From the human T2T-CHM13v2.0 reference genome, Homo sapiens: 64,000 nt of DNA. The position numbers were made by a program, and so were the translations under genes. The stretch lies in assembly GCA_009914755.4 (NCBI GenBank), contig CP086569.2, positions 51,200,001 to 51,264,000 on the forward strand, read 5' to 3'. Below the pieces are notes generated by a model that was not told where the DNA came from, did no database searches, and saw only the letters and a list, made by a program, of their open reading frames with translations. Positions 10,101-35,715 of the stretch are shown here, one piece after another. Every line of letters starts with the position of its first letter. The stretch's first letter is position 1.

Positions 10101-10712
10101 GAATTGAATGGAATGGAATTGAATGGAATGGGAACGAATGGAGTGAAATTGTATGCAGTAGAAGGGAATAGAATGGAATGCAAGCGAAAGGAAAGGAATG
10201 GATTGGAATGGAATGGAATTCATTGGAATGGAAGGGAATGTAGTGTAATGGACAGGCCTGGAATAAAGTGGAATGCTACGGTCTCGAATGGAATAAAAAT
10301 GTATGGAATGGAATACAAAGAAACGGAATCGAATGTCATAGAATGTAATGGAATGCAACAAAATGGAATCCAAAATCATTGACTGGAAAGGCTGGGTGTC
10401 GAAAGGAATTGACTCCAATGGAATGGAATCGAATGGAATGGAAGTGAATAGAATCGAACTAAATCGAATGGAATGGAATTGATAGGAACGGAATGGAAAG
10501 GAATGCAATGATTTGGCATGGAATGGAATCGAATGGCATCGAATGGAATGGAATGGAATGCAATGGAATGGAATGTATTAGAATGTAATGAACTTTAATG
10601 GAATGTACTCGAATGGATTCGACTGGAATGGAATGTTCTGGAAGTGAATGGACTCCAATGGAATGGATTCCAAAGGAATGGAATCGTACGGAATGGAATC
10701 TAATGGAATGGA
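7134..10712 (+). repeat. HOR unit 3 (3579 bp), variant family B
   Basis: Anchors at 7134 and 10713. Shares 'LCILFAIYSS...FHYI' and 'FAFCLQSIRVHC' variants with units 5, 8 and 18. Confidence 0.9.
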
Positions 10713-13700
10713 ATTAAATGGAAATGAATCAAATTGAATAGCACGGAATTGAATTGAATGGAATGGAATGCAATGGAATCTAATGAAACGGAAAGGAAAG
10801 GAATGGAATGGAATGGAATGGGCTGGAATGGAAAGGAATCGAAACGAATGGAATGGAATCGAACTGAAGAGACTGGAATGGAATGCACTGGAATGGAAGG
10901 GAGTGTAATGGAAGGTTCTCGAAAAAAATGGAATCGAATGGAATGGAATTGAATGGAACGGAATAGAGTCGAATGGAATTGAATGGAATGGAATGGACTA
11001 GAGTGAAATGGAATCGAACCACAAGGAATGGAGAGGAATAGAATGGTCTCGAATTGAATGGAATCGTATGGAGTGGCATCAAACGGAATGGAATGGACAG
11101 CCACGGAATGGAATGCACTCGAATGCAATGGAGTCGAAACTAATGGACTGGAATAGAATGGACTCGACTGGTACGGACTCCAATGGAATGGAATCGAATG
11201 GAAGGGAATCGAACGGAATGGACTCGAAGGGAAAAGACTGCAATGGAAAGGTCTCGAATGGAATGGAAATTAATGGAATGGAATGGAATCGAATGAAATG
11301 GAGTCAAAAGGAATGGAATCGAATGGCAACAAATCGAATGTAATGGAATCGCAAGGAATTGATGTGAACGGAACGGAATGGAATGGAATCCAAAGGAATG
11401 GAATAGAATGGAATGGAATCGAATGGAAAGGACTCGAATGGAAATCACTCGAATAGAATGCAATTTAATAAAATAGGATCAAATGGAATGGAATGGAATG
11501 GAAAGGAATCGAAACGAAAGGAATGGAGACAGATGGAATGGAATGGAACAGAGAGCAATGCTATAGAATGGAATGGAATCATCTGGAATGGAATTGAATG
11601 GAATGGAATAATATGAAATGGAATGGAATGGAATGGAATGGAATGCCCTTGAATTAAATGGACTGGAATGGAATGGACTCCAACAGAGTGGAATGGAAAG
11701 TGTTGAGATAGAATGGAATGGACTCCTTTGGAATGGTCTAGTATGCAATGCAATCGACTGGCAGGGAATCAAAAGGAATGTAATCGAATGGATTGGACTG
11801 GAATGCAATGGACTCGAATAGATTGGAAACGGAATGCAAAGGAATGGAATGGAATAGTATGGAATGGAATGGAAAGGAATGGAGTGGAATAGACTAGAGT
11901 GGAATGGAATGGACTGGAAAGCAATGGACTGGAATGGAACTTTCTTGAATGGACTGGAATCAAACGGAATGGAATGCAATGCAATCAAATGGCATGGAAT
12001 AAAATAGAATGAAAGAGAATCAAATGGAATTGAATCGAATGGAATCGAATGGATTGGAAAGGAATAGAATGGAATGGAATGGAATTGACTCAAATGGAAT
12101 GGACTAGAATGGAATGGATTCGAATGGAAGGCAAAGGAATGGAATCTATTGGAATGGACTGTAATGGAATGGAATGGAAGGGATTGGAATGGACTCGAAT
12201 GGAATGGACTGCAATAGAAAGGATTCCAATGGAATGAAAAAGAATTGAATGGAATAGAACAGAATGGAATCAAATCGAATGAAATGGAATGGAATAGAAA
12301 GGAATGGAATGAAATGGAATGGAAAGGATTCGAATGGAATGCAATCGAATGGAATGGAATCGAACGGAATGGAATAAAATGGAAGAAAACTGGCAAGAAA
12401 TGGAATCGAAATGAATGGAGTATTATGGAACGGACTCAAAAGGAATTGAATGTAATAGAATGGAGTGGAGTGGACTCGAATATAATGGACTGGAATGGAA
12501 TGAAATCACATGGAATGGGAACGAATGGAATGGAATGGAAAGGAATGGAATCGAATGGAAAGGAATCGAATGGAAGGGAATGAAATTGAATCAACAGGAA
12601 TGGAAGGGAATAGAATAGACGGTAATGGAATGGACTCGAATAGAATGGACACGAATGCTCAAATTGAATGGACTCGAATGGAATGGAAACGAAAGGAATG
12701 TCATCGAATGGAATTGAATCGATTGGAATGAAATCGCATAGAATGGAGTGGAATCAAATGGAATTGAATCGAAAGGAAAGGAAGCGAATGGACTGAAATG
12801 AAATGGAATGGAATTGAATGGAAAGTAATGCAATGGAATAGAATGGAACGAAATTTCACGGAATGGAATCAAACTGAATGGAATCAAATCAATGGAATCT
12901 AATCAAATGGAATGGAAAGGAATTGAATGGAGTAGATTGGATTGGATGGGATTGGAATGAAATCTACTGGAAAGGACTCGAATTTCATGAAACGGAATGG
13001 AATGAATTGGAACGGAATGGACTCGAATGGAATGGAATGTCATGGAATGGCATCAAATGGAATGGCATCAAATGGAATGGAATCGAATGCAATGGAATGT
13101 TATGGAATGGAATGGAATGCATTGGAATGGAATGTCCTCTAATGGAATGGATTCGAGTGGAATGGAATCGAATATAATGGAGTCGAATGAAATGGAATTG
13201 AAAGGAATGGGATCGAATAGAATGGAATATACTGGAATGTAATGTAATGAACTCGAATGTAATTGACTGGAATGGAATGTACATGAATGGAAGGTAATCG
13301 AATGGAAAGTAATCCAATGGAATAGAATCTAATGCAATAAAACCGACTCAGATAGAGTAGAATGTAATGGAATGGAGTGCAGTGCAATGGAATGGAATGG
13401 AATTGAATGCAATGGAATGGAATGGAATGGAATGGAATGGAATGGAATGGAATGGAATGGAATGGAATGGGATGGAATGGTATGGAATGGATAGAAATGG
13501 ACTGGAGTGAAATGGACTGGAAAGGAATGGACTCAAATTGAAAGGGCTCGAAAGGAATGGAGTCAAATGGAATGGTCTGGAATGGAATGAACACGAATGT
13601 AATGCAATCCAATAGAATGGAATCGAATGGCATGGAATATAAAGAAATGGATACGAAGAGAATGGAAACAAATGGAATGGAATTGAATGGAATGGAATTG

Positions 13701-14291
13701 AATGGAATGGGAACGAATGGAGTGAAATTGTATGCAGTAGAAGGGAATAGAATGGAATGCAAGCGAAAGGAAAGGAATGGATTGGAATGGAATGGAATTC
13801 ATTGGAATGGAAGGGAATGTAGTGTAATGGACAGGCCTGGAATAAAGTGGAATGCTACGGTCTCGAATGGAATAAAAATGTATGGAATGGAATGCAATGA
13901 AACGGAATCGAATGTCATAGAATGTAATGGAATGCAACAAAATGGAATCCAAAATCATTGACTGGAAAGGCTGGGTGTCGAAAGGAATTGACTCCAATGG
14001 AATGGAATCGAATGGAATGGAAGTGAATAGAATCGAACTAAATCGAATGGAATGGAATTGATAGGAACGGAATGGAAAGGAATGCAATGATTTGGCATGG
14101 AATGGAATCGAATGGCATCGAATGGAATGGAATGGAATGCAATGGAATGGAATGTATTAGAATGTAATGAACTTTAATGGAATGTACTCGAATGGATTCG
14201 ACTGGAATGGAATGTTCTGGAAGTGAATGGACTCCAATGGAATGGATTCAAAAGGAATGGAATCGTACGGAATGGAATCTAATGGAATGGA
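10713..14291 (+). repeat. HOR unit 4 (3579 bp), family A
   Basis: Anchors at 10713 and 14292. From ~11.4 kb onward it is near-identical to unit 7. Confidence 0.9.
13411..13470 (+). repeat. Pure (AATGG)12 tract in unit 4. The homologous tract in its duplicate, unit 7, has 11 copies.
   Basis: Counted directly. Confidence 0.9.
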
Positions 14292-17200
14292 ATTAAATGG
14301 AAATGAATCAAATTGAATAGCACGGAATTGAATTGAATGGAATGGAATGCAATGGAATCTAATGAAACGGAAAGGAAAGGAATGGAATGGAATGGAATGG
14401 GCTGGAATGGAAAGGAATCGAAACGAATGGAATGGAATCGAACTGAAGAGACTGGAATGGAATGCACTGGAATGGAAGGGAGTGTAATGGAAGGTTCTCG
14501 AAAAAAATGGAATCGAATGGAATGGAATTGAATGGAACGGAATAGAGTCGAATGGAATTGAATGGAATGGAATGGACTAGAGTGAAATGGAATCGAACCA
14601 CAAGGAATGGAGAGGAATAGAATGGTCTCGAATTGAATGGAATCATATGGAATGGCATCAAACGGAATGGAATGGACAGCCACGGAATGGAATGCACTCG
14701 AATGCAATGGAGTCGAAACTAATGGACTGGAATAGAATGGACTCGACTGGTACGGACTCCAATGGAATGGAATCGAATGGAAGGGAATCGAACGGAATGG
14801 ACACGAAGGGAAAAGACTGCAATGGAAAGGTCTCGAATGGAATGGAAATTAATGGAATGGAATGGAATCGAATGAAATGGAGTCAAAAGGAATGGAATCG
14901 AATGGCAAGAAATCGAATGTAATGGAATCGCAAGGAATTGATGTGAACGGAACGGAATGGAATGGAATCCAAAGGAATGGAATAGAATGGAATGGAATCG
15001 AATGGAAAGGACTCGAATGGAAATCACTCGAATAGAATGCAATTTAATAAAATAGGATCAAATATAATGGAATGGAATGGAAAGGAATCGAAACGAAAGG
15101 AATGGAGACAGATGGAATGGAATAGAACAGAGAGCAATGGTATAGAATGGAATGGAATCATCTGGAATGGAATTGAATGGAATGGAATAATATGAAATGG
15201 AATGGAATGGAATGGAATGGAATGCCCTTGAATTAAATGGACTGGAATGGAATGGACTCGAACAGAGTGGAATGGAAAGTGTTGAGATAGAATGGAATGG
15301 ACTCCTTTGGAATGGTGTAGTATGCAATGCAATCGACTGGCAGGGAATCAAAAGGAATGTAATCGAATGGATTGGACTGGAATGCAATGGACTCGAATAG
15401 ATTGCAAACAGAATGCAAAGGAATGGAATGGAATAGTATGGAATGGAATGGAAAGGAATGGAGTGGAATAGACTAGAGTGGAATGGAATGGACTGGAAAG
15501 CAATGGACTGGAATGGAACTTTCTTGAATGGACTGGAATCAAACGGAATGGAATGCAATGCAATCAAATGGCATGGAATAAAATAGAATGAAAGAGAATC
15601 AAATGGAATTGAATCGAATGGAATCGAATGGATTGGAAAGGAATAGAATGGAATGGAATGGAATTGACTCAAATGGAATGGACTAGAATGGAATGGATTC
15701 GAATGGAAGGCAAAGGAATGGAATCTATTGGAATGGACTGTAATGGAATGGAATGGAAGGGATTGGAATGGACTCGAATGGAATGGACTGCAATAGAAAG
15801 GATTTGAATGGAATGAAAAAGAATTGAATGGAATAGAACAGAATGGAATCAAATCGAATGAAATGGAATGGAATAGAAAGGAATGGAATGAAATGGAATG
15901 GAAAGGATTCGAATGGAATGCAATCGAATGGAATGGAATCGAACGGAATGGAATAAAATGGAAGAAAACTGGCAAGAAATGGAATCGAAATGAATGGAGT
16001 GTTATGGAACGGACTCAAAAGGAATTGAATGTAATAGAATGGAGTGGAGTGGACTCGAATATAATGGACTGGAATGGAATGAAATCACATGGAATGGGAA
16101 CGAATGGAATGGAATGGAAAGGAATGGAATCGAATGGAAAGGAATCGAATGGAAGGGAATGAAATTGAATCAACAGGAATGGAAGGGAATAGAATAGACG
16201 GTAATGGAATGGACTCGAATAGAATGGACACGAATGCTCAAATTGAATGGACTCGAATGGAATGGAAACGAAAGGAATGTCATCGAATGGAATTGAATCG
16301 ATTGGAATGAAATCGCATAGAATGGAGTGGAATCAAATGGAATTGAATCGAAAGGAAAGGAAGCGAATGGACTGAAATGAAATGGAATGGAATTGAATGG
16401 AAAGTAATGCAATGGAATAGAATGGAACGAAATTTCACGGAATGGAATCAAACTGAATGGAATCAAATCAATGGAATCAAATCAAATGGAATGGAAAGGA
16501 ATTGAATGGAGTAGATTGGATTGGATGGGATTGGAATGAAATGTACTGGAAAGGACTCGAATTTCATGAAACGGAATGGAATGAATTGGAACGGAATGGA
16601 CTCGAATGGAATGGAATGTCATGGAATGGCATCAAATGGAATGGCATCAAATGGAATGGAATCGAATGCAATGGAATGCTATGGAATGGAATGGAATGCA
16701 TTGGAATGGAATGTCCTCTAATGGAATGGATTCGAGTGGAATGGAATCGAATATAATGGAGTCGAATGAAATGGAATTGAAAGGAATGGGATCGAATACA
16801 ATGGAATATACTGGAATGTAATGTAATGAACTCGAATGTAATTGACTGGAATGGAATGTACATGAATGGAATGTAATCGAATGGAAAGTAATCCAATGGA
16901 ATAGAATCTAATGCAATAAAATCGACTCAGATAGAGTAGAATGTAATGGAATGGAGTGCAGTGCAATGGAATGGAATGGAATGGAATGCAATGGAATGGA
17001 ATGGAATGGAATGGAATGGAATGGAATGGAATGGAATGGAATGGGATGGAATGGTATGGAATGGATAGTAATGGACTGGAGTGAAATGGACTGGAAAGGA
17101 ATGGACTCAAATTGAAAGGGCTCGAAAGGAATGGAGTCAAATGGAATGGTCTGGAATGGAATGAACACGAATGTAATGCAATCCAATAGAATGGAATCGA

Positions 17201-17865
17201 ATGGCATGGAATATAAAGAAATGGATTCGAAGAGAATGGAAACAAATGGAATGGAATTGAATGGAATGGAATTGAATGGAATGGGAACGAATGGAGTGAA
17301 ATTGTATGCAGTAGAAGGGAATAGAATGGAATGCAAGCGAAAGGAAAGGAATGGATTGGAATGGAATGGAATTCATTGGAATGGAAGGGAATGTAGTGTA
17401 ATGGACAGGCCTGGAATAAAGTGGAATGCTACGGTCTCGAATGGAATAAAAATGTATGGAATGGAATACAAAGAAACGGAATCGAATGTCATAGAATGTA
17501 ATGGAATGCAACAAAATGGAATCCAAAATCATTGACTGGAAAGGCTGGGTGTCGAAAGGAATTGACTCCAATGGAATGGAATCGAATGGAATGGAAGTGA
17601 ATAGAATCGAACTAAATCGAATGGAATGGAATTGATAGGAACGGAATGGAAAGGAATGCAATGATTTGGCATGGAATGGAATCGAATGGCATCGAATGGA
17701 ATGGAATGGAATGCAATGGAATGGAATGTATTAGAATGTAATGAACTTTAATGGAATGTACTCGAATGGATTCGACTGGAATGGAATGTTCTGGAAGTGA
17801 ATGGACTCCAATGGAATGGATTCAAAAGGAATGGAATCGTACGGAATGGAATCTAATGGAATGGA
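14292..17865 (+). repeat. HOR unit 5 (3574 bp), family B
   Basis: Anchors at 14292 and 17866. Near-identical to unit 8; one visible SNP at 14811 (gacacgaagg versus gactcgaagg). Confidence 0.9.
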
Positions 17866-20800
17866 ATTAAATGGAAATGAATCAAATTGAATAGCACGGA
17901 ATTGAATTGAATGGAATGGAATGCAATGCAATCTAATGAAACGGAAAGGAAAGGAATGGAATGGAATGGAATGGGCTGGAATGGAAAGGAATCGAAACGA
18001 ATGGAATGGAATCGAACTGAAGAGACTGGAATGGAATGCACTGGAATGGAAGGGAGTGTAATGGAAGGTTCTCGAAAAAAATGGAATCGAATGGAATGGA
18101 ATTGAATGGAACGGAATAGAGTCGAATGGAATTGAATGGAATGGAATGGACTAGAGTGAAATGGAATCAAACCACAAGGAATGGAGAGGAATAGAATGGT
18201 CTCGAATTGAATGGAATCGTATGGAATGGCATCAAACGGAATGGAATGGACAGCCACGGAATGGAATGCACTCGAATGCAATGGAGTCGAAACTAATGGA
18301 CTGGAATAGAATGGACTCGACTGGTACGGACTCCAATGGAATGGAATCGAATGGAAGGGAATCGAACGGAATGGACTCGAAGGGAAAAGACTGCAATGGA
18401 AAGGTCTCGAATGGAATGGAAATTAATGGAATGGAATGGAATCGAATGAAATGGAGTCAAAAGGAATGGAATCGAATGGCAACAAATCGAATGTAATGGA
18501 ATCGCAAGGAATTGATGTGAACGGAACGGAACGGAATGGAATGGAATCCAAAGGAATGGAATAGAATGGAATGGAATCGAATGGAAAGGACTCGAATGGA
18601 AATCACTCGAATAGAATGCAATTTAATAAAATAGGATCAAATGTAATGGAATGGAATGGAAAGGAATCGAAACGAAAGGAATGGAGACAGATGGAATGGA
18701 ATAGAACAGAGAGCAATGGTATGGAATGGAATGGAATCATCTGGAATGGAATTGAATGGAATGGAATAATATGAAATGGAATGGAATGGAATGGAATGGA
18801 ATGGAATGCCCTTGAATTAAATGGACTGGAATGGAATGGACTCGAACAGAGTGGAATGGAAAGTGTTGAGATAGAATGGAATGGACTCCTTTGGAATGGT
18901 GTAGTATGCAATGCAATCGACTGGCAGGGAATCAAAAGGAATGTAATGGAATGGACTGGACTGGAATGCAATGGACTCGAATAGATTGGAAACGGAATGC
19001 AAAGAAATGGAATGGAATAGTATGGAATGGAATGGAAAGGAATGGAGTGGAATAGACTAGAGTGGAATGGAATGGACTGGAAAGCAATGGACTGGAATGG
19101 AACTTTCTTGAATGGACTGGAATCAAACGGAATGGAATGCAATGCAATCAAATGGCATGGAATAAAATAGAATGAAAGAGAATCAAATGGAATTGAATCG
19201 AATGGAATCGAATGGATTGGAAAGGAATAGAATGGAATGGAATGGAATTGACTCAAATGGAATGGACTAGAATGGAATGGATTCGAATGGAAGGCAAAGG
19301 AATGGAATCTATTGGAATGGACTGTAATGGAATGGAATGGAAGGGATTGGAATGGACTCGAATGGAATGGACTGCAATAGAAAGGATTCGAATGGAATGA
19401 AAAAGAATTGAATGGAATAGAACAGAATGGAATCAAATCGAATGAAATGGAATGGAATAGAAAGGAATGGAATGAAATGGAATGGAAAGGATTCGAATGG
19501 AATGCAATCGAATGGAATGGAATCGAACGGAATGGAATAAAATGGAAGAAAACTGGCAAGAAATGGAATCGAAATGAATGGAGTGTTATGGAACGGACTC
19601 AAAAGGAATTGAATGTAATAGAATGGAGTGGAGTGGACTCGAATATAATGGACTGGAATGGAATGAAATCACATGGAATGGGAACGAATGGAATGGAATG
19701 GAAAGGAATGGAATCGAATGGAAAGGAATCGAATGGAAGGGAATGAAATTGAATCAACAGGAATGGAAGGGAATAGAATAGACGGTAATGGAATGGACTC
19801 GAATAGAATGGACACGAATGCTCAAATTGAATGGACTCGAATGGAATGGAAACGAAAGGAATGTCATCGAATGGAATTGAATCGATTGGAATGAAATCGC
19901 ATAGAATGGAGTGGAATCAAATGGAATTGAATCGAAAGGAAAGGAAGCGAATGGACTGAAATGAAATGGAATGGAATTGAATGGAAAGTAATGCAATGGA
20001 ATAGAATGGAACGAAATTTCACGGAATGGAATCAAACTGAATGGAATCAAATCAATGGAATATAATCAAATGGAATGGAAAGGAATTGAATGGAGTAGAT
20101 TGGATTGGATGGGATTGGAATGAAATGTACTGGAAAGGACTCGAATTTCATGAAACGGAATGGAATGAATTGGAACGGAATGGACTCGAATGGAATGGAA
20201 TGTCATGGAATGGCATCAAATGGAATGGCATCAAATGGAATAGAATCGAATGCAATGGAATGCTATGGAATGGAATGGAATGCATTGGAATGGAATGTCC
20301 TCTAATGGAATGGATTCGAGTGGAATGGAATCGAATATAATGGAGTCGAATGAAATGGAATTGAAAGGAATGGGATCGAATACAATGGAATATACTGGAA
20401 TGTAACGTAATGAACTCGAATGTAATTGACTGGAATGGAATGTACATGAATGGAATGTAATCGAATGGAAAGTAATCCAATGGAATAGAATCTAATGCAA
20501 TAAAACCGACTCAGATAGAGTAGAATGTAATGGAATGGAGTGCAGTGCAATGGAATGGAATGGAATGGAATGCAATTGAATGGAATGGAATGGAATGGAA
20601 TGGAATGGAATGGGATGGAATGGTATGGAATGGATAGTAATGGACTGGAGTGAAATGGACTGGAAAGGAATGGACTCAAATTGAAAGGGCTCGAAAGGAA
20701 TGGAGTCAAATGGAATGGTCTGGAATGGAATGAACACGAATGTAATGCAATCCAAAAGAATGGAATCGAATGGCATGGAATATAACGAAATGGAATCGGA

Positions 20801-21434
20801 GAGAATGGAAACAAATGGAATGGAATTGAATGGAATGGAATTGAATGGAATGGGAACGAATGGAGTGAAATTGTATACAGTAGAAGGGAATAGAATGGAA
20901 TGCAAGCGAAAGGAAAGGAATGGATTGGAATGGAATGGAATTCATTGGAATGGAAGGGAATGTAGTGTAATGGACAGGCCTGGAATAAAGTGGAATGCTA
21001 CGGTCTCGAATGGAATAAAAATGTATGGAATGGAATGCAATGAAATGGAATCGAATGTCATAGAATGTAATGGAATGCAACAAAATGGAATCCAAAATCA
21101 TTGACTGGAAAGGCTGGGTGTCGAAAGGAATTGACTCCAATGGAATGGAATCGAATGGAATGGAAGTGAATAGAATCGAACTAAATCGAATGGAATGGAA
21201 TTGATAGGAACGGAATGGAAAGGAATGCAATGATTTGGCATGGAATGGAATCGAATGGCATCGAATGGAATGGAATGGAATGCAATGGAATGGAATGTAT
21301 TAGAATGTAATGAACTTTAATGGAATGTACTCGAATGGATTCGACTGGAATGGAATGTTCTGGAAGTGAATGGACTCCAATGGAATGGATTCCAAAGGAA
21401 TGGAATCGTACGGAATGGAATCTAATGGAATGGA
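17866..21434 (+). repeat. HOR unit 6 (3569 bp), family C
   Basis: Anchors at 17866 and 21435. Private 'MEWNAMQSNETERKG' and 'DCIAFHSIQ' variants shared only with unit 9. Confidence 0.9.
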
Positions 21435-24400: not shown

Positions 24401-25008
24401 TGAATGGAATGGAATTGAATGGAATGGGAACGAATGGAGTGAAATTGTATGCAGTAGAAGGGAATAGAATGGAATGCAAGCGAAAGGAAAGGAATGGATT
24501 GGAATGGAATGGAATTCATTGGAATGGAAGGGAATGTAGTGTAATGGACAGGCCTGGAATAAAGTGGAATGCTACGGTCTCGAATGGAATAAAAATGTAT
24601 GGAATGGAATGCAATGAAACGGAATCGAATGTCATAGAATGTAATGGAATGCAACAAAATGGAATCCAAAATCATTGACTGGAAAGGCTGGGTGTCGAAA
24701 GGAATTGACTCCAATGGAATGGAATCGAATGGAATGGAAGTGAATAGAATCGAACTAAATCGAATGGAATGGAATTGATAGGAACGGAATGGAAAGGAAT
24801 GCAATGATTTGGCATGGAATGGAATCGAATGGCATCGAATGGAATGGAATGGAATGCAATGGAATGGAATGTATTAGAATGTAATGAACTTTAATGGAAT
24901 GTACTCGAATGGATTCGACTGGAATGGAATGTTCTGGAAGTGAATGGACTCCAATGGAATGGATTCAAAAGGAATGGAATCGTACGGAATGGAATCTAAT
25001 GGAATGGA
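21435..25008 (+). repeat. HOR unit 7 (3574 bp). The first ~650 bp resembles the start of unit 10; the rest resembles unit 4.
   Basis: Anchors at 21435 and 25009. At 22081 it reads ttgacgtgaaaggaacgg, as unit 10 does at 32800. From ~22190 onward it equals unit 4. Confidence 0.9.
24133..24187 (+). repeat. Pure (AATGG)11 tract in unit 7. This is the homologue of 13411-13470, one pentamer shorter.
   Basis: Counted directly. This 5-bp difference accounts for the 10,722-bp versus 10,717-bp lengths of the duplicated three-unit blocks. Confidence 0.85.
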
Positions 25009-28000
25009 ATTAAATGGAAATGAATCAAATTGAATAGCACGGAATTGAATTGAATGGAATGGAATGCAATGGAATCTAATGAAACGGAAAGGAAAGGAAT
25101 GGAATGGAATGGAATGGGCTGGAATGGAAAGGAATCGAAACGAATGGAATGGAATCGAACTGAAGAGACTGGAATGGAATGCACTGGAATGGAAGGGAGT
25201 GTAATGGAAGGTTCTCGAAAAAAATGGAATCGAATGGAATGGAATTGAATGGAACGGAATAGAGTCGAATGGAATTGAATGGAATGGAATGGACTAGAGT
25301 GAAATGGAATCGAACCACAAGGAATGGAGAGGAATAGAATGGTCTCGAATTGAATGGAATCATATGGAATGGCATCAAACGGAATGGAATGGACAGCCAC
25401 GGAATGGAATGCACTCGAATGCAATGGAGTCGAAACTAATGGACTGGAATAGAATGGACTCGACTGGTACGGACTCCAATGGAATGGAATCGAATGGAAG
25501 GGAATCGAACGGAATGGACTCGAAGGGAAAAGACTGCAATGGAAAGGTCTCGAATGGAATGGAAATTAATGGAATGGAATGGAATCGAATGAAATGGAGT
25601 CAAAAGGAATGGAATCGAATGGCAAGAAATCGAATGTAATGGAATCGCAAGGAATTGATGTGAACGGAACGGAATGGAATGGAATCCAAAGGAATGGAAT
25701 AGAATGGAATGGAATCGAATGGAAAGGACTCGAATGGAAATCACTCGAATAGAATGCAATTTAATAAAATAGGATCAAATATAATGGAATGGAATGGAAA
25801 GGAATCGAAACGAAAGGAATGGAGACAGATGGAATGGAATAGAACAGAGAGCAATGGTATAGAATGGAATGGAATCATCTGGAATGGAATTGAATGGAAT
25901 GGAATAATATGAAATGGAATGGAATGGAATGGAATGGAATGCCCTTGAATTAAATGGACTGGAATGGAATGGACTCGAACAGAGTGGAATGGAAAGTGTT
26001 GAGATAGAATGGAATGGACTCCTTTGGAATGGTGTAGTATGCAATGCAATCGACTGGCAGGGAATCAAAAGGAATGTAATCGAATGGATTGGACTGGAAT
26101 GCAATGGACTCGAATAGATTGCAAACAGAATGCAAAGGAATGGAATGGAATAGTATGGAATGGAATGGAAAGGAATGGAGTGGAATAGACTAGAGTGGAA
26201 TGGAATGGACTGGAAAGCAATGGACTGGAATGGAACTTTCTTGAATGGACTGGAATCAAACGGAATGGAATGCAATGCAATCAAATGGCATGGAATAAAA
26301 TAGAATGAAAGAGAATCAAATGGAATTGAATCGAATGGAATCGAATGGATTGGAAAGGAATAGAATGGAATGGAATGGAATTGACTCAAATGGAATGGAC
26401 TAGAATGGAATGGATTCGAATGGAAGGCAAAGGAATGGAATCTATTGGAATGGACTGTAATGGAATGGAATGGAAGGGATTGGAATGGACTCGAATGGAA
26501 TGGACTGCAATAGAAAGGATTTGAATGGAATGAAAAAGAATTGAATGGAATAGAACAGAATGGAATCAAATCGAATGAAATGGAATGGAATAGAAAGGAA
26601 TGGAATGAAATGGAATGGAAAGGATTCGAATGGAATGCAATCGAATGGAATGGAATCGAACGGAATGGAATAAAATGGAAGAAAACTGGCAAGAAATGGA
26701 ATCGAAATGAATGGAGTGTTATGGAACGGACTCAAAAGGAATTGAATGTAATAGAATGGAGTGGAGTGGACTCGAATATAATGGACTGGAATGGAATGAA
26801 ATCACATGGAATGGGAACGAATGGAATGGAATGGAAAGGAATGGAATCGAATGGAAAGGAATCGAATGGAAGGGAATGAAATTGAATCAACAGGAATGGA
26901 AGGGAATAGAATAGACGGTAATGGAATGGACTCGAATAGAATGGACACGAATGCTCAAATTGAATGGACTCGAATGGAATGGAAACGAAAGGAATGTCAT
27001 CGAATGGAATTGAATCGATTGGAATGAAATCGCATAGAATGGAGTGGAATCAAATGGAATTGAATCGAAAGGAAAGGAAGCGAATGGACTGAAATGAAAT
27101 GGAATGGAATTGAATGGAAAGTAATGCAATGGAATAGAATGGAACGAAATTTCACGGAATGGAATCAAACTGAATGGAATCAAATCAATGGAATCAAATC
27201 AAATGGAATGGAAAGGAATTGAATGGAGTAGATTGGATTGGATGGGATTGGAATGAAATGTACTGGAAAGGACTCGAATTTCATGAAACGGAATGGAATG
27301 AATTGGAACGGAATGGACTCGAATGGAATGGAATGTCATGGAATGGCATCAAATGGAATGGCATCAAATGGAATGGAATCGAATGCAATGGAATGCTATG
27401 GAATGGAATGGAATGCATTGGAATGGAATGTCCTCTAATGGAATGGATTCGAGTGGAATGGAATCGAATATAATGGAGTCGAATGAAATGGAATTGAAAG
27501 GAATGGGATCGAATACAATGGAATATACTGGAATGTAATGTAATGAACTCGAATGTAATTGACTGGAATGGAATGTACATGAATGGAATGTAATCGAATG
27601 GAAAGTAATCCAATGGAATAGAATCTAATGCAATAAAATCGACTCAGATAGAGTAGAATGTAATGGAATGGAGTGCAGTGCAATGGAATGGAATGGAATG
27701 GAATGCAATGGAATGGAATGGAATGGAATGGAATGGAATGGAATGGAATGGAATGGAATGGGATGGAATGGTATGGAATGGATAGTAATGGACTGGAGTG
27801 AAATGGACTGGAAAGGAATGGACTCAAATTGAAAGGGCTCGAAAGGAATGGAGTCAAATGGAATGGTCTGGAATGGAATGAACACGAATGTAATGCAATC
27901 CAATAGAATGGAATCGAATGGCATGGAATATAAAGAAATGGATTCGAAGAGAATGGAAACAAATGGAATGGAATTGAATGGAATGGAATTGAATGGAATG

Positions 28001-28582
28001 GGAACGAATGGAGTGAAATTGTATGCAGTAGAAGGGAATAGAATGGAATGCAAGCGAAAGGAAAGGAATGGATTGGAATGGAATGGAATTCATTGGAATG
28101 GAAGGGAATGTAGTGTAATGGACAGGCCTGGAATAAAGTGGAATGCTACGGTCTCGAATGGAATAAAAATGTATGGAATGGAATACAAAGAAACGGAATC
28201 GAATGTCATAGAATGTAATGGAATGCAACAAAATGGAATCCAAAATCATTGACTGGAAAGGCTGGGTGTCGAAAGGAATTGACTCCAATGGAATGGAATC
28301 GAATGGAATGGAAGTGAATAGAATCGAACTAAATCGAATGGAATGGAATTGATAGGAACGGAATGGAAAGGAATGCAATGATTTGGCATGGAATGGAATC
28401 GAATGGCATCGAATGGAATGGAATGGAATGCAATGGAATGGAATGTATTAGAATGTAATGAACTTTAATGGAATGTACTCGAATGGATTCGACTGGAATG
28501 GAATGTTCTGGAAGTGAATGGACTCCAATGGAATGGATTCAAAAGGAATGGAATCGTACGGAATGGAATCTAATGGAATGGA
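25009..28582 (+). repeat. HOR unit 8 (3574 bp), family B, equal to unit 5
   Basis: Anchors at 25009 and 28583. The ORF-track translations are identical to those of unit 5 apart from one residue. Confidence 0.9.
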
Positions 28583-31500
28583 ATTAAATGGAAATGAATC
28601 AAATTGAATAGCACGGAATTGAATTGAATGGAATGGAATGCAATGCAATCTAATGAAACGGAAAGGAAAGGAATGGAATGGAATGGAATGGGCTGGAATG
28701 GAAAGGAATCGAAACGAATGGAATGGAATCGAACTGAAGAGACTGGAATGGAATGCACTGGAATGGAAGGGAGTGTAATGGAAGGTTCTCGAAAAAAATG
28801 GAATCGAATGGAATGGAATTGAATGGAACGGAATAGAGTCGAATGGAATTGAATGGAATGGAATGGACTAGAGTGAAATGGAATCAAACCACAAGGAATG
28901 GAGAGGAATAGAATGGTCTCGAATTGAATGGAATCGTATGGAATGGCATCAAACGGAATGGAATGGACAGCCACGGAATGGAATGCACTCGAATGCAATG
29001 GAGTCGAAACTAATGGACTGGAATAGAATGGACTCGACTGGTACGGACTCCAATGGAATGGAATCGAATGGAAGGGAATCGAACGGAATGGACTCGAAGG
29101 GAAAAGACTGCAATGGAAAGGTCTCGAATGGAATGGAAATTAATGGAATGGAATGGAATCGAATGAAATGGAGTCAAAAGGAATGGAATCGAATGGCAAC
29201 AAATCGAATGTAATGGAATCGCAAGGAATTGATGTGAACGGAACGGAACGGAATGGAATGGAATCCAAAGGAATGGAATAGAATGGAATGGAATCGAATG
29301 GAAAGGACTCGAATGGAAATCACTCGAATAGAATGCAATTTAATAAAATAGGATCAAATGTAATGGAATGGAATGGAAAGGAATCGAAACGAAAGGAATG
29401 GAGACAGATGGAATGGAATAGAACAGAGAGCAATGGTATGGAATGGAATGGAATCATCTGGAATGGAATTGAATGGAATGGAATAATATGAAATGGAATG
29501 GAATGGAATGGAATGGAATGGAATGCCCTTGAATTAAATGGACTGGAATGGAATGGACTCGAACAGAGTGGAATGGAAAGTGTTGAGATAGAATGGAATG
29601 GACTCCTTTGGAATGGTGTAGTATGCAATGCAATCGACTGGCAGGGAATCAAAAGGAATGTAATGGAATGGACTGGACTGGAATGCAATGGACTCGAATA
29701 GATTGGAAACGGAATGCAAAGAAATGGAATGGAATAGTATGGAATGGAATGGAAAGGAATGGAGTGGAATAGACTAGAGTGGAATGGAATGGACTGGAAA
29801 GCAATGGACTGGAATGGAACTTTCTTGAATGGACTGGAATCAAACGGAATGGAATGCAATGCAATCAAATGGCATGGAATAAAATAGAATGAAAGAGAAT
29901 CAAATGGAATTGAATCGAATGGAATCGAATGGATTGGAAAGGAATAGAATGGAATGGAATGGAATTGACTCAAATGGAATGGACTAGAATGGAATGGATT
30001 CGAATGGAAGGCAAAGGAATGGAATCTATTGGAATGGACTGTAATGGAATGGAATGGAAGGGATTGGAATGGACTCGAATGGAATGGACTGCAATAGAAA
30101 GGATTCGAATGGAATGAAAAAGAATTGAATGGAATAGAACAGAATGGAATCAAATCGAATGAAATGGAATGGAATAGAAAGGAATGGAATGAAATGGAAT
30201 GGAAAGGATTCGAATGGAATGCAATCGAATGGAATGGAATCGAACGGAATGGAATAAAATGGAAGAAAACTGGCAAGAAATGGAATCGAAATGAATGGAG
30301 TGTTATGGAACGGACTCAAAAGGAATTGAATGTAATAGAATGGAGTGGAGTGGACTCGAATATAATGGACTGGAATGGAATGAAATCACATGGAATGGGA
30401 ACGAATGGAATGGAATGGAAAGGAATGGAATCGAATGGAAAGGAATCGAATGGAAGGGAATGAAATTGAATCAACAGGAATGGAAGGGAATAGAATAGAC
30501 GGTAATGGAATGGACTCGAATAGAATGGACACGAATGCTCAAATTGAATGGACTCGAATGGAATGGAAACGAAAGGAATGTCATCGAATGGAATTGAATC
30601 GATTGGAATGAAATCGCATAGAATGGAGTGGAATCAAATGGAATTGAATCGAAAGGAAAGGAAGCGAATGGACTGAAATGAAATGGAATGGAATTGAATG
30701 GAAAGTAATGCAATGGAATAGAATGGAACGAAATTTCACGGAATGGAATCAAACTGAATGGAATCAAATCAATGGAATATAATCAAATGGAATGGAAAGG
30801 AATTGAATGGAGTAGATTGGATTGGATGGGATTGGAATGAAATGTACTGGAAAGGACTCGAATTTCATGAAACGGAATGGAATGAATTGGAACGGAATGG
30901 ACTCGAATGGAATGGAATGTCATGGAATGGCATCAAATGGAATGGCATCAAATGGAATAGAATCGAATGCAATGGAATGCTATGGAATGGAATGGAATGC
31001 ATTGGAATGGAATGTCCTCTAATGGAATGGATTCGAGTGGAATGGAATCGAATATAATGGAGTCGAATGAAATGGAATTGAAAGGAATGGGATCGAATAC
31101 AATGGAATATACTGGAATGTAACGTAATGAACTCGAATGTAATTGACTGGAATGGAATGTACATGAATGGAATGTAATCGAATGGAAAGTAATCCAATGG
31201 AATAGAATCTAATGCAATAAAACCGACTCAGATAGAGTAGAATGTAATGGAATGGAGTGCAGTGCAATGGAATGGAATGGAATGGAATGCAATTGAATGG
31301 AATGGAATGGAATGGAATGGAATGGAATGGGATGGAATGGTATGGAATGGATAGTAATGGACTGGAGTGAAATGGACTGGAAAGGAATGGACTCAAATTG
31401 AAAGGGCTCGAAAGGAATGGAGTCAAATGGAATGGTCTGGAATGGAATGAACACGAATGTAATGCAATCCAAAAGAATGGAATCGAATGGCATGGAATAT

Positions 31501-32151
31501 AACGAAATGGAATCGGAGAGAATGGAAACAAATGGAATGGAATTGAATGGAATGGAATTGAATGGAATGGGAACGAATGGAGTGAAATTGTATACAGTAG
31601 AAGGGAATAGAATGGAATGCAAGCGAAAGGAAAGGAATGGATTGGAATGGAATGGAATTCATTGGAATGGAAGGGAATGTAGTGTAATGGACAGGCCTGG
31701 AATAAAGTGGAATGCTACGGTCTCGAATGGAATAAAAATGTATGGAATGGAATGCAATGAAATGGAATCGAATGTCATAGAATGTAATGGAATGCAACAA
31801 AATGGAATCCAAAATCATTGACTGGAAAGGCTGGGTGTCGAAAGGAATTGACTCCAATGGAATGGAATCGAATGGAATGGAAGTGAATAGAATCGAACTA
31901 AATCGAATGGAATGGAATTGATAGGAACGGAATGGAAAGGAATGCAATGATTTGGCATGGAATGGAATCGAATGGCATCGAATGGAATGGAATGGAATGC
32001 AATGGAATGGAATGTATTAGAATGTAATGAACTTTAATGGAATGTACTCGAATGGATTCGACTGGAATGGAATGTTCTGGAAGTGAATGGACTCCAATGG
32101 AATGGATTCCAAAGGAATGGAATCGTACGGAATGGAATCTAATGGAATGGA
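28583..32151 (+). repeat. HOR unit 9 (3569 bp), family C, equal to unit 6
   Basis: Anchors at 28583 and 32152. The 318-aa '-' strand artefact ORF is identical to the one in unit 6. Confidence 0.9.
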
Positions 32152-35100
32152 ATTAAATGGAAATGAATCAAATTGAATAGCACGGAATTGAATTGAATGG
32201 AATCGAATGCAATGGAATCTAATGAAACGGAAAGGAAAGGAATGGAATGGAATGGAATGGGCTGGAATGGAAAGGAATCGAAACGAATGGAATGGAATCG
32301 AACTGAAGAGACTGGAATGGAATGCACTGGAATGGAAGGGAGTGTAATGGAAGGTTCTCGAAAAAAATGGAATCGAATGGAATGGAATTGAATGGAACGG
32401 AATAGAGTCGAATGGAATTGAATGGAATGGAATGGACTAGAGTGATATGGAATCGAACCACAAGGAATGGAGAGGAATAGAATGGTCTCGAATTGAATGG
32501 AATCGTATGGAGTGGCATCAAACGGAATGGAATGGACAGCCACGGAATGGAATGCACTCGAATGCAATGGAGTCGAAACTAATGGACTGGAATAGAATGG
32601 ACTCGACTGGTACGGACTCCAATGGAATGGAATCGAATGGAAGGGAATCGAACGGAATGGACTCGAAGGGAAAAGACTGCAATGGAAAGGTCTCGAATGG
32701 AATGGAAATTAATGGAATGGAATGGAATCGAATGAAATGGAGTCAAAAGGAATGGAATCGAATGGCAACAAATCGAATGTAATGGAATCGCAAGGAATTG
32801 ACGTGAAAGGAACGGAATGGAATGGAATCCAAAGGAATGGAATAGAATGGAATGGAATCGAATGGAAAGGACTCGAATGGAAATCACTCGAATAGAATGC
32901 AATTTAATAAAATAGGATCAAATGTAATGGAATGGAATGGAAAGGAATCGAAACGAAAGGAATGGAGACAGATGGAATGGAATGGAACAGAGAGCAATGG
33001 TGTAGAATGGAATGGAATCATCTGGAATGGAATTGAATGGAATGGAATAATATGAAATGGAATGGAATGGAATGGAATGGAATGCCCTTGAATTAAATGG
33101 ACTGGAATGGAATGGACTCGAACAGAGTGGAATGGAAAGTGTTGAGATAGAATGGAATGGACTCCTTTGGAATGGTGTAGTATGCAATGCAATCGACTGG
33201 CAGGGAATCAAAAGGAATGTAATGGAATGGACTGGACTGGAATGCAATGGACTCGAATAGATTGGAAACGGAATGCAAAGAAATGGAATGGAATAGTATG
33301 GAATGGAATGGAAAGGAATGGAGTGGAATAGACTAGAGTGGAATGGAATGGACTGGAAAGCAATGGACTGGAATGGAACTTTCTTGAATGGACTGGAATC
33401 AAACGGAATGGAATGCAATGCAATCAAATGGCATGGAATAAAATAGAATGAAAGAGAATCAAATGGAATTGAATCGAATGGAATCGAATGGATTGGAAAG
33501 GAATAGAATGGAATGGAATGGAATGGACTCAAATGGAATGGACTAGAATGGAATGGATTCGAATGGAAGGCAAAGGAATGGAATCTATTGGAATGGACTG
33601 TAATGGAATGGAATGGAAGGGATTGGAATGGACTCGAATGGAATGGACTGCAATAGAAAGGATTCGAATGGAATGAAAAAGAATTGAATGGAATAGAACA
33701 GAATGGAATCAAATCGAATGAAATGGAATGGAATAGAAAGGAATGGAATGAAATGGAATGGAAAGGATTCGAATGGAATGCAATCGAATGGAATGGAATC
33801 GAACGGAATGGAATAAAATGGAAGAAAACTGGCAAGAAATGGAATCGAAATGAATGGAGTGTTATGGAACGGACTCAAAAGGAATTGAATGTAATAGAAT
33901 GGAGTGGAGTGGACTCGAATATAATGGACTGGAATGGAATGAAATCACATGGAATGGGAACGAATGGAATGGAATGGAAAGGAATGGAATCGAATGGAAA
34001 GGAATCGAATGGAAGGGAATGAAATTGAATCAACAGGAATGGAAGGGAATAGAATAGACGGTAATGGAATGGACTCGAATAGAATGGACACGAATGCTCA
34101 AATTAAATGGACTCGAATGGAATGGAAACGAAAGGAATGTCATCGAATGGAATTGAATCGATTGGAATGAAATCGCATAGAATGGAGTGGAATCAAATGG
34201 AATTGAATCGAAAGGAAAGGAAGCGAATGGACTGAAATGAAATGGAATGGAATTGAATGGAAAGTAATGCAATGGAATAGAATGGAACGAAATTTCACGG
34301 AATGGAATCAAACTGAATGGAATCAAATCAATGGAATCAAATCAAATGGAATGGAAAGGAATTGAATGGAGTAGATTGGATTGGATGGGATTGGAATGAA
34401 ATGTACTGGAAAGGACTCGAATTTCATGAAACGGAATGGAATGAATTGGAACGGAATGGACTCGAATGGAATGGAATGTCATGGAATGGCATCAAATGGA
34501 ATGGCATCAAATGGAATGGAATCGAATGCAATGGAATGCTATGGAATGGAATGGAATGCATTGGAATGGAATGTCCTCTAATGGAATGGATTCGAGTGGA
34601 ATGGAATCGAATATAATGGAGTCGAATGAAATGGAATTGAAAGGAATGGGATCGAATAGAATGGAATATACTGGAATGTAATGTAATGAACTCGAATGTA
34701 ATTGACTGGAATGGAATGTACATGAATGGAATGTAATCGAATGGAAAGTAATCCAATGGAATAGAATCTAATGCAATAAAACCGACTCAGATAGAGTAGA
34801 ATGTAATGGAATGGAGTGCAGTGCAATGGAAGGGAATGGAATTGAATGCAATGGAATGGAATGGAATGGAATGGAATGGAATGGAATGGAATGGGATGGA
34901 ATGGTATGGAATGGATAGTAATGGACTGGAGTGAAATGGACTGGAAAGGAATGGACTCAAATTGAAAGGGCTCGAAAGGAATGGAGTCAAATGGAATGGT
35001 CTGGAATGGAATGAACACGAATGTAATGCAATCCAATAGAATGGAATCGAATGGCATGGAATATAAAGAAATGGAATCGAAGAGAATGGAAACAAATGGA

Positions 35101-35715
35101 ATGGAATTGAATGGAATGGAATTGAATGGAATGGGAACGAATGGAGTGAAATTGTATGCAGTAGAAGGGAATAGAATGGAATGCAAGCGAAAGGAAAGGA
35201 ATGGATTGGAATGGAATGGAATTCATTGGAATGGAAGGGAATGTAGTGTAATGGACAGGCCTGGAATAAAGTGGAATGCTACGGTCTCGAATGGAATAAA
35301 AATGTATGGAATGGAATGCAATGAAACGGAATCGAATGTCATAGAATGTAATGGAATGCAAAAAAATGGAATCCAAAATCATTGACTGGAAAGGCTGGGT
35401 GTCGAAAGGAATTGACTCCAATGGAATGGAATCGAATGGAATGGAAGTGAATAGAATCGAACTAAATCGAATGGAATGGAATTGATAGGAACGGAATGGA
35501 AAGGAATGCAATGATTTGGCATGGAATGGAATCGAATGGCATCGAATGGATTGGAATGGAATGCAATGGAATGGAATGTATTAGAATGTAATGAACTTTA
35601 ATGGAATGTACTCGAATGGATTCGACTGGAATGGAATGTTCTGGAAGTGAATGGACTCCAATGGAATGGATTCAAAAGGAATGGAATCGTACGGAATGGA
35701 ATCTAATGGAATGGA
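32152..35715 (+). repeat. HOR unit 10 (3564 bp), family D
   Basis: Anchors at 32152 and 35716. 'FHITLV', 'GTESNGVEW' and 'NAQIKWTRMEW' variants are shared with unit 12. Confidence 0.9.

What the first reader, a model, noticed from the sequence alone, without database searches (positions are those of the whole stretch)
11400..32850. Near-identical tandem duplication of a three-HOR-unit (10.72-kb) block
The block at ~11.4-22.1 kb is repeated at ~22.1-32.8 kb. Block 1 is the rest of unit 4, all of units 5 and 6, and the first ~650 bp of unit 7. Block 2 is the rest of unit 7, all of units 8 and 9, and the first ~650 bp of unit 10.

All artefact-ORF translations are identical between the homologous units. 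Examples are the 305-aa '-' ORF at 11479-12396 versus 22201-23118, and the 318-aa ORF at 18603-19559 versus 29320-30276. Private variants seen nowhere else occur in both copies (MEWNAMQS at 17911 and 28628; DCIAFHSIQ; MATNRM).

The visible differences are a (AATGG)12 versus (AATGG)11 tract and one SNP at 14811 versus 25511. The copy-2 left junction lies between 22,100 and 22,200. Left of it, unit 7 matches unit 10 (ttgacgtgaaagg at 22081 versus 32800). Right of it, unit 7 matches unit 4. This points to a very recent unequal sister-chromatid exchange or duplication in register at a three-unit offset.
Basis: seen in the sequence. Interest (0 to 1): 0.55.

Follow-up and report, generated by a model that had tools for sequence, protein, structure and literature searches.

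The report
Recent three-unit duplication in Y satellite
A 10.7-kb stretch (three repeat units) of the human Y-chromosome DYZ1 satellite sits twice in a row, almost letter-perfect; the duplication is real and recent, but it is the ordinary way such satellite arrays grow and shrink.

Summary
Window 11370-22091 (10,722 bp) and 22092-32808 (10,717 bp) are head-to-tail copies. They differ by one SNP (14803 A / 25520 T) and one AATGG pentamer ((AATGG)12 vs (AATGG)11). About 124 differences would be expected at the local background of ~11.5 events/kb (P~1e-50).

The whole window is 18 units of human DYZ1 / HSat3A6 (Yq12). Evidence: one HaeIII site per ~3.57-kb unit, 38.7% GC, only the HSat3A6 diagnostic 24-mer present, and all published DYZ1 primers hitting once per unit.

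The near-identical tract is one period plus 116 bp. Unit 7 is a scar-free hybrid: unit-10-type to the left of 22092 and unit-4-type to the right of 22207. That is the signature of an in-register, homology-driven tandem duplication at a three-unit offset, most likely unequal sister-chromatid exchange. Each copy carries one derived mutation. The rough age is ~120 generations (95% 3-670) at the published Yq12 rate, or up to ~60 ky at the euchromatic Y rate.

No three-unit periodicity exists outside the block. Older, more eroded two-unit duplications lie around it.

Such turnover in Yq12 is already documented, so interest is low. An assembly artefact and population polymorphism could not be tested here.

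The parts
1..64000 (+). Host array: 18 tandem units (3,521-3,579 bp) of human DYZ1 / HSat3A6 satellite. The + strand is the GGAAT strand, antisense to the classical TTCCA orientation. Unit starts: 1, 3555, 7134, 10713, 14292, 17866, 21435, 25009, 28583, 32152, 35716, 39280, 42849, 46423, 49982, 53531, 57060, 60581.
   Evidence: Searches give periodicity and unit boundaries. One search gives one GGCC per unit, 38.7% GC and 1 CpG per 36 bp. One search shows 7/7 published DYZ1 primers hitting. One search shows only the HSat3A6 24-mer present.
11370..22091 (+). Copy 1 of the duplicated block, 10,722 bp. It comprises unit 4 from offset +657, units 5 and 6, and the first 656 bp of unit 7.
22092..32808 (+). 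Copy 2 of the duplicated block, 10,717 bp. It comprises unit 7 from offset +657, units 8 and 9, and the first 656 bp of unit 10.
22092..22207 (+). Exchange (breakpoint) interval, 116 bp. The sequence is identical in unit 4 (11370-11485), unit 7 and unit 10 (32809-32924). Left of it unit 7 equals unit 10 (22085 C, 22091 A). Right of it unit 7 equals unit 4 (22208 G). There is no gap or filler.
   Evidence: three-way alignment; informative-site mosaic.
14803..14803 (+). The only substitution between the copies: A in copy 1 vs T at 25520 in copy 2. A is unique among all 18 units, so it is a derived mutation in copy 1 after the duplication. It lies in the published primer 'DYZ1 D' site.
13411..13470 (+). 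(AATGG)12 tract in copy 1. Its homologue at 24133-24187 is (AATGG)11. Unit 2, the older paralogue of unit 4, has the unit-4 length, so copy 2 lost one pentamer after the duplication.
3916..17823 (+). Older two-unit duplication. 3916-10670 (units 2-3) matches 11074-17823 (units 4-5) with 10 events in 6.76 kb, or 1.5/kb. The three-unit event re-copied its right-hand copy.

Best explanation
The window is a stretch of the human Y-chromosome long-arm satellite DYZ1 (HSat3A6).

Within it, a block of exactly three 3.57-kb units was duplicated in tandem by homologous recombination between copies of the array misaligned by three units. The most likely route is unequal sister-chromatid exchange, since the male-specific Y has no homologue.

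The exchange resolved inside a 116-bp stretch (now 22092-22207) where the then unit 4 and unit 7 were identical. This produced a hybrid unit 7: the left 656 bp come from the old unit 7 (today's unit 10) and the rest from unit 4. It added 10.7 kb to the array.

Since then one T>A substitution arose in copy 1 (14803) and one AATGG pentamer was lost in copy 2 (24133). The event is therefore young, on the order of 10^2 generations at the Yq12 pedigree mutation rate and at most some 10^4-10^5 years.

The duplication has no function of its own. It is a snapshot of the unequal-exchange turnover that homogenises and resizes this satellite.

Shown: the duplication structure, the hybrid junction, the family identity and the polarity of both mutations. 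Inferred: the sister-chromatid mechanism, the net gain of copies and the age.
For: Structure of the duplication:
- 10,715 matches, 1 mismatch and one 5-bp indel between the blocks.
- The tract 11370-22207 is 10,838 bp with 2 events where 124 are expected, P~9e-51. The next best stretch on any diagonal is 3.9 kb.
- Tract length equals the period (10,722 bp) plus 116 bp. The 116-bp overlap is typical of local identity tracts: 76% of positions lie in tracts of 116 bp or more.
- The gap-free three-way alignment shows U7=U10 at 2 sites on the left and U7=U4 at 3 sites on the right. The informative-site mosaic shows the same.
- Unit difference matrix: U6=U9 0 differences, U5/U8 1, U4/U7 9, against 30-97 for other full-length pairs.
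- There is no three-unit periodicity outside the block. The rate is 11.5 events/kb, the same as other diagonals.
- The SNP is derived in copy 1 and the indel is derived in copy 2.

DYZ1 identity:
- One GGCC per unit, fragments of 3,504-3,579 bp including 3,569, 38.7% GC and 1 CpG per 36 bp. Published values are a 3,569-bp modal fragment, 38% GC and 1 CpG per 35 bp.
- 7/7 published primers sit at the expected distances from the HaeIII site.
- Only the HSat3A6 24-mer is present; 13 other subfamily markers are absent.

Mechanism, from the literature:
- Yq12 rearrangement patterns are described as consistent with unequal exchange, and sister-chromatid exchanges in Yq12 were seen in ~15% of Strand-seq libraries.
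- Expansion and contraction inside arrays has been inferred.
- De novo whole-unit SVs arise about once per Y transmission, and the Yq12 SNV rate is 3.86e-7 per bp per generation.
Against: - No reads were available, so a mis-assembled extra traversal of a tandem-repeat loop cannot be excluded. Assembler errors at such loops in Y heterochromatin are reported.
- There is no outgroup haplotype. A net gain of three units is therefore not shown directly.
- A conversion tract of 10.7 kb or more would leave the same pattern.
- Unequal sister-chromatid exchange cannot be told apart from break-induced replication or template switching on sequence alone.
- The age depends on a mutation rate that differs ~30-fold between Yq12 pedigree and euchromatic estimates. 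Conversion between the copies could also make the event look younger.
- The public collections reachable here gave nothing: the ORF product is not on record, and the junction 124-mer is absent from metagenome contigs.
Confidence: 0.8

Rival explanations
1. Assembly artefact. The assembler walked a near-identical tandem-repeat loop once too often, creating a false extra copy of three units. The two differences would be consensus or polishing errors.
For: The copies are almost identical. One of the two differences is a pentamer-count change in a 60-bp microsatellite-like tract, a typical consensus error type. The 2026 population-scale Y preprint reports path errors at loops in tandem repeats in heterochromatic regions.
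Against: The copies are not identical. There is a T>A transversion in non-repetitive context, private to one copy among 18 units. The junction unit is a clean hybrid whose flanks carry distinguishing variants within 124 bp. The 10.7-kb period is shorter than typical HiFi/ONT reads, so the structure should be resolvable (inference). The same window holds older, diverged multi-unit duplications, showing that the process is real here.
Confidence: 0.08
2. Long-tract gene conversion without change in copy number. Pre-existing units 7-9 were overwritten by units 4-6 from a misaligned sister chromatid.
For: Interlocus gene conversion is frequent in Yq12: 29% of de novo SNVs match non-orthologous sites, and 17% of events fit conversion. 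Shorter tracts in the window that are below one period, such as U10~U12 at 32205-36058, could be conversions.
Against: A tract shorter than the offset is excluded, because the identity covers a whole period plus only 116 bp. There is no reason for a conversion tract to stop within ~100 bp of exactly three units. A tract of 10.7 kb or more would be far longer than usual conversion tracts (established knowledge). It is also formally equivalent to a duplication plus an equal downstream loss.
Confidence: 0.07
3. Replication-based duplication. A collapsed fork or broken end re-invades three units behind, by break-induced replication or template switching, and re-copies 10.7 kb with no reciprocal exchange.
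For: It gives exactly the same product: an in-register, scar-free junction within a tract of perfect homology.
Against: Nothing in the sequence argues against it. Sister-chromatid exchanges are directly observed in Yq12, which makes the exchange route the default.
Confidence: 0.25
4. The 10.7-kb period is a genuine higher-order (three-unit) superstructure of this part of the array rather than a single duplication.
For: The three-unit diagonal has the highest overall identity, 98.65%.
Against: That excess comes entirely from the one block. Outside it the three-unit diagonal has 11.5 events/kb, like all others. U1/U4, U2/U5, U3/U6, U8/U11 and U9/U12 differ at 45-71 columns. There are only two copies.
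Confidence: 0.02

Closest known systems
Recent iterative tandem duplications in Yq12 of T2T-Y (Rhie et al., preprint 10.1101/2022.12.01.518724)
   Same: Same locus class (DYZ1/DYZ2 heterochromatin). The signature is the same, near-identical tandem copies seen in exact-match dot plots, and the authors' interpretation is the same (unequal exchange).
   Different: Those events span up to 5 Mb and several DYZ1/DYZ2 blocks. This one is 10.7 kb, three units inside one DYZ1 array, and is resolved here to a 116-bp exchange interval.
Within-array expansion/contraction of DYZ1 and DYZ2 units (Hallast et al., preprint 10.1101/2022.12.01.518658) and the ~80-kb DYZ19 duplication shared by haplogroup QR
   Same: Local homogenisation by gain and loss of units. 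These are lineage-restricted, datable duplications in Y satellites.
   Different: The published evidence is array-level similarity gradients or a much larger DYZ19 event. No unit-resolved junction is given for DYZ1.
De novo whole-unit structural variants in Yq12 in the CEPH 1463 pedigree (PMC12240836)
   Same: Gain or loss of whole satellite units arises at about one event per Y transmission, which shows the process is ongoing.
   Different: The reported de novo events were 2.4-4.8 kb and in DYZ2. This one is three DYZ1 units and is not de novo, because two mutations have accumulated since.
Unequal-crossover model of tandem-repeat evolution (Smith 1976) and layered expansions in alpha-satellite HOR arrays (own knowledge, not checked in the library)
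   Same: Out-of-register homologous exchange creates multi-unit duplications and hybrid junction units. Nested events of different ages are expected.
   Different: None in principle. This is a textbook instance in HSat3 rather than alpha satellite.

Membership tests
DYZ1 / HSat3A6 (human Yq12 satellite) | ~3.5-3.6 kb unit with a single HaeIII (GGCC) site; modal HaeIII fragment 3,569 bp (3,564 bp in the classical clone) | tested here: met
   There are 18 GGCC sites, exactly one per unit. Fragments are 3,504-3,579 bp, including 3,569 (x3), 3,574 (x4) and 3,579 (x3).
DYZ1 / HSat3A6 (human Yq12 satellite) | Built from diverged CATTC/GGAAT pentamers; ~38% GC; ~1 CpG per 35 bp | tested here: met
   GGAAT occurs 4,324 times on the + strand against 12 for ATTCC. 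TRF reports periods of 10 and 15 across the whole window. GC is 38.7% and there is 1 CpG per 36.2 bp.
DYZ1 / HSat3A6 (human Yq12 satellite) | Subfamily-specific 24-mer of Altemose 2014 Table 1 present; markers of other HSat2/3 subfamilies absent | tested here: met
   TCGTTTCGATTCCTTTCCATTCCA gives 33 hits, about 2 per unit, on the minus strand. The other 13 subfamily 24-mers give 0 hits.
DYZ1 / HSat3A6 (human Yq12 satellite) | Published DYZ1 PCR primers anneal at their stated positions in the HaeIII unit | tested here: met
   Primers A-G of PMC3925983 Table 5 each hit about once per unit (16-18 of 18 units) with 0-2 mismatches. Their distances from the HaeIII site match the stated positions to within ~30 bp. 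A primer pair recalled from memory gives a 154-bp amplicon once per unit, but I could not confirm that pair in the library.
DYZ1 / HSat3A6 (human Yq12 satellite) | Units more than 98% identical within an array | tested here: met
   Identity is 98.0-98.65% on most diagonals, as stated for T2T-Y.
DYZ1 / HSat3A6 (human Yq12 satellite) | Located in Yq12, in blocks alternating with DYZ2 (HSat1B) | not testable with these tools
   The window is pure DYZ1 with no flank and no DYZ2. No human assembly is searchable here.
Tandem duplication by out-of-register homologous exchange (unequal sister-chromatid exchange type) | Two adjacent head-to-tail copies spanning an integral number of units, far more alike than the array background | tested here: met
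   Copies of 10,722 and 10,717 bp equal three units. Two events are seen where 124 are expected.
Tandem duplication by out-of-register homologous exchange (unequal sister-chromatid exchange type) | Identity tract equals one period plus a short stretch of pre-existing identity; the junction unit is a hybrid of the two parental units | tested here: met
   The tract is 10,838 bp, which is 10,722 + 116. Unit 7 is U10-type on the left and U4-type on the right.
Tandem duplication by out-of-register homologous exchange (unequal sister-chromatid exchange type) | Scar-free junction with no filler, deletion or microhomology-only join | tested here: met
   The three-way alignment over 281 columns has no gap and 116 identical bases at the switch.
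Tandem duplication by out-of-register homologous exchange (unequal sister-chromatid exchange type) | Net gain of units relative to the ancestral haplotype; reciprocal deletion on the sister chromatid | not testable with these tools
   This needs orthologous arrays from other Y assemblies or pedigrees. Nothing was found in the reachable collections.
Multi-unit higher-order periodicity (three-unit super-repeat) | The three-unit period recurs beyond a single pair of copies | tested here: not met
   Outside the block the three-unit diagonal is at background, 11.5 events/kb. Unit pairs three apart differ at 45-71 columns.
Gene-conversion tract | Tract length unrelated to, and usually much shorter than, the donor-recipient offset; no copy-number change | tested here: inconclusive
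   The tract covers the full offset plus 116 bp. That excludes a tract shorter than the offset and is unexpected for conversion. A tract at least as long as the offset cannot be excluded from one haplotype.

The most novel reading that the evidence does not exclude
The three-unit event is the latest step of a locally active, nested series. A two-unit duplication of units 2-3 came first, and then a three-unit duplication re-copied its right half. The exchanges may prefer one site in the DYZ1 unit: the unit-7 junction lies at unit offset +657 to +772, and an older mosaic switch in unit 6 lies at about +652. If so, this would be a recombination-prone spot inside the satellite unit. The duplication would also be a haplogroup-restricted marker that lets satellite turnover be clocked on the Y phylogeny.
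Probability: 0.1. Interest if true: 0.4.

Novelty: already known. Interest (0 to 1): 0.15.

Why it matters
It matters little on its own. It is a clean, base-resolved example of how the largest human heterochromatin block turns over. It has an exchange interval narrowed to 116 bp, both post-duplication mutations polarised, and older nested duplications around it.

If it is confirmed with reads and placed on the Y phylogeny, events like this could serve two purposes. They could calibrate the rate and size spectrum of unit-scale unequal exchange in DYZ1, for which pedigree data so far show events only in DYZ2. They could also act as lineage markers inside a region that is otherwise hard to genotype. 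The phenomenon itself is well documented.

Tried and rejected
- The repeat finder on 9000-36000 was swamped by pentamer-level self-similarity (families of ~1,700 overlapping 300-nt 'copies'). It was uninformative at the kb scale and only showed 0 inverted repeats. I used BLAST and global alignment in scripts instead.
- Searching the paper library for the classical 154-bp DYZ1 primer pair, which I recalled from memory, found nothing. I replaced it with primers printed in PMC3925983.
- A look-up of the 305-aa artefact ORF in the public gene-position index found it not on record.
- An exact scan of metagenome contigs for the 124-bp junction haplotype gave 0 hits. Even a hit would not have been decisive, because the same variant combination could occur in other DYZ1 units.
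- Protein or RNA content of the block was rejected. The ORFs translate to degenerate (IPFHS)n. They give only sub-threshold Extensin_1/Pentapeptide_4 hits, 23-42 bits against cut-offs of 38 and 105. Rfam gives no match.
- A three-unit super-repeat was rejected.
- The inflated difference counts on the 9- and 12-unit BLAST diagonals (28 and 37 events/kb) are alignment-path artefacts. The MAFFT unit matrix shows ordinary distances for those pairs.
- A breakpoint hotspot at unit offset ~+650 was considered. It is not supported beyond coincidence (~7% by chance), and detection bias is likely because that part of the unit is variant-dense.

Full report
**What the window is**

The 64-kb window is pure pentameric satellite: A 25,900, G 19,459, T 13,306 and C 5,335. 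TRF reports periods of 10 and 15 across 33-63,994. On top of this sits a strong ~3.57-kb periodicity.

BLAST of the window against itself gives end-to-end alignments at every multiple of ~3.57 kb, with 98.0-98.65% identity on most diagonals. Following the one-unit diagonal cuts the window into 18 units of 3,521-3,579 bp.

**Family identity**

I tested the features that the literature gives for DYZ1/HSat3A6:

- **Published description.** Hallast et al. describe a ~3.5-kb unit, a modal HaeIII fragment of 3,569 bp, 38% GC and 1 CpG per 35 bp. Rhie et al. describe ~3.6-kb nested repeats derived from CATTC, with units more than 98% identical.
- **Window values.** The window has exactly one GGCC per unit, with fragments of 3,504-3,579 bp that include 3,569, 3,574 and 3,579. 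GC is 38.7% and there is 1 CpG per 36 bp.
- **Diagnostic 24-mers.** Of the 14 subfamily-diagnostic 24-mers in Altemose 2014 Table 1, only the HSat3A6 one is present (33 hits). The other 13 give zero hits.
- **Primers.** All seven DYZ1 primers printed in PMC3925983 hit about once per unit, at the stated distances from the HaeIII site.
- **Orientation.** The + strand is the GGAAT strand, antisense to the classical orientation. This agrees with the report that 96% of Yq12 units are antisense in assemblies.

Chromosomal position could not be tested.

**The observation**

- Global alignment of 11400-22120 against 22120-32840 gives 10,715 matches, one mismatch (14803 A / 25520 T) and one 5-bp gap (AATGG at 13411-13415, present only in copy 1).
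- On the three-unit diagonal the near-identical tract runs 11370-22207 vs 22092-32924, which is 10,838 bp. It is bounded by mismatches at 11363/11369 and at 22208.
- Outside the block the same diagonal carries 11.5 difference events per kb. About 124 events are therefore expected and two are seen (Poisson P~9e-51).
- The longest stretch with two or fewer events on any other diagonal is 3.9 kb. On diagonals without an older relationship it is ~1.0-1.6 kb on those spanning at least 10 kb.
- The unit difference matrix says the same: U6/U9 0, U5/U8 1 and U4/U7 9 difference columns, against 30-97 for other full-length pairs.

Corrections:

- The SNP is ~9 bp from the stated coordinates.
- 'MATNRM' occurs at six sites.
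- 11 open frames overlapping the two differences do differ between the copies.

**Anatomy of the junction**

Copy 1 is 11370-22091 (10,722 bp = 3,579 + 3,574 + 3,569). Copy 2 is 22092-32808 (10,717 bp). The identity continues for a further 116 bp (22092-22207 = 32809-32924 = 11370-11485).

A gap-free three-way alignment shows the switch. Unit 7 shares C and A with unit 10 at 22085 and 22091. It then shares G with unit 4 at 22208, and two more sites about 75 bp further on. The informative-site table shows the same switch over the whole unit.

This is what an in-register exchange between arrays misaligned by three units predicts. The diagonal identity equals one period plus the stretch in which the two parental units were already identical. 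A 116-bp identity tract is unremarkable here, since 76% of positions lie in tracts at least that long. There is no filler or deletion, so the join was homology-driven.

**Polarity and age**

- The A at 14803 is unique among all 18 units, so it arose in copy 1 after the duplication.
- Unit 2, an older paralogue of unit 4, has the same pentamer-tract length as unit 4, so copy 2 lost one AATGG.
- One SNV in 2 x 10.7 kb corresponds to ~121 generations (95% 3-673) at the pedigree-based Yq12 rate of 3.86e-7 per bp per generation.
- At 0.76e-9 per bp per year, the rate quoted, it corresponds to ~61 ky (1.6-342 ky).
- These are rough. Conversion between copies would bias the estimate young.

**Context**

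A likelihood-ratio segmentation of all diagonals ranks the three-unit block far above everything else (LLR 103). It also finds older multi-unit tracts:

- **Units 2-3 vs 4-5.** 3916-10670 vs 11074-17823, 10 events, 1.5/kb, about 8 times more diverged than the three-unit block.
- **Unit 9R-11L vs 11R-13L.** 29237-36058, with its core being U10~U12.
- **A one-unit tract.** 49600-53488.

The three-unit event therefore re-copied the right half of an earlier two-unit duplication, giving a nested, iterative history. No three-unit periodicity exists beyond the single pair.

**Mechanism and rivals**

The literature already attributes Yq12 structure to unequal exchange:

- It reports sister-chromatid exchanges there in ~15% of Strand-seq libraries.
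- It infers expansion and contraction inside arrays.
- It finds about one de novo whole-unit SV per Y transmission, all in DYZ2.

Unequal sister-chromatid exchange is therefore the default reading.

| Rival | Assessment |
|---|---|
| Break-induced replication or template switch | Gives the same product and cannot be separated from unequal exchange on sequence alone. |
| Gene conversion, tract shorter than the offset | Excluded, because the identity covers the whole period. |
| Gene conversion, tract of 10.7 kb or more | Equivalent to duplication plus an equal loss; cannot be excluded without another haplotype. |
| Assembly artefact | Cannot be excluded without reads, and tandem-loop path errors are known. 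The two copies differ by a private transversion, and the structure is shorter than long reads, so this is unlikely. |

**Nothing else is hidden in the block**

- Rfam gives no match.
- The long ORFs translate to degenerate (IPFHS)n, the in-frame reading of ATTCC.
- They give only sub-threshold hits to pentapeptide-periodic Pfam families.

**Verdict**

The thing itself is an ordinary, already-documented kind of event in a well-studied satellite. Interest is low (0.15).

No human assemblies are searchable here, and the two attempts on public collections found nothing.

Noticed in passing
window 3916-10670 vs 11074-17823: Older two-unit tandem duplication (units 2-3 ~ units 4-5) with 10 difference events in 6.76 kb, or 1.5/kb. 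That is about 8 times the divergence of the three-unit block. Its right copy was later re-copied by the three-unit event, which gives a five-unit-offset tract at 4311-10670.
   Followed up: partly
window 29237-36058 vs ~36365-43191 (core 32205-36058 vs 39333-43191): A further two-unit-offset low-divergence tract. Unit 10 vs unit 12 shows only 11 difference columns. The core is shorter than the 7.1-kb offset, so it is either a conversion tract or an eroded older duplication.
   Followed up: partly
window 49600-53488 (one-unit offset) and units 15-18 (49982-64000): A one-unit-offset tract with 9 events in 3.9 kb. The right end of the window has shorter units (3,549, 3,529 and 3,521 bp), larger indels, and the most divergent units. 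U16 and U17 differ from the other full-length units at 29-106 columns (45-106 if the recently related pair U15/U16 is left out). This may be nearer an array edge or an older part of the array.
   Followed up: no
window 13411-13470 and homologous tracts in all units: The (AATGG)n tract that carries the only indel between the copies varies in length across the 18 units by up to ~35 bp. It behaves like a microsatellite embedded in the satellite unit.
   Followed up: partly
window 14802-14821: The single post-duplication SNP (14803 T>A) lies inside the published PCR primer site 'DYZ1 D' (PMC3925983). Unit 5 is the only one of the 18 units without an exact match to that primer.
   Followed up: yes
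unit offsets about +652 to +772: window 11366/18519, 29237, 22092-22207: Unit 6 (and its copy, unit 9) is itself a mosaic. Its switch point is at about +652, within ~5-120 bp of the unit-7 junction at +657 to +772. This could be a preferred exchange site or a detection bias, since that part of the unit is variant-dense. The chance of such proximity is ~7%.
   Followed up: partly
window-wide, 9-unit and 12-unit BLAST diagonals (offsets 32151 and 42848): These two diagonals show 28 and 37 events/kb (96.6% and 95.5% identity) although the MAFFT unit matrix shows normal distances for the same pairs. This is an alignment-path (pentamer register) artefact, not biology.
   Followed up: partly
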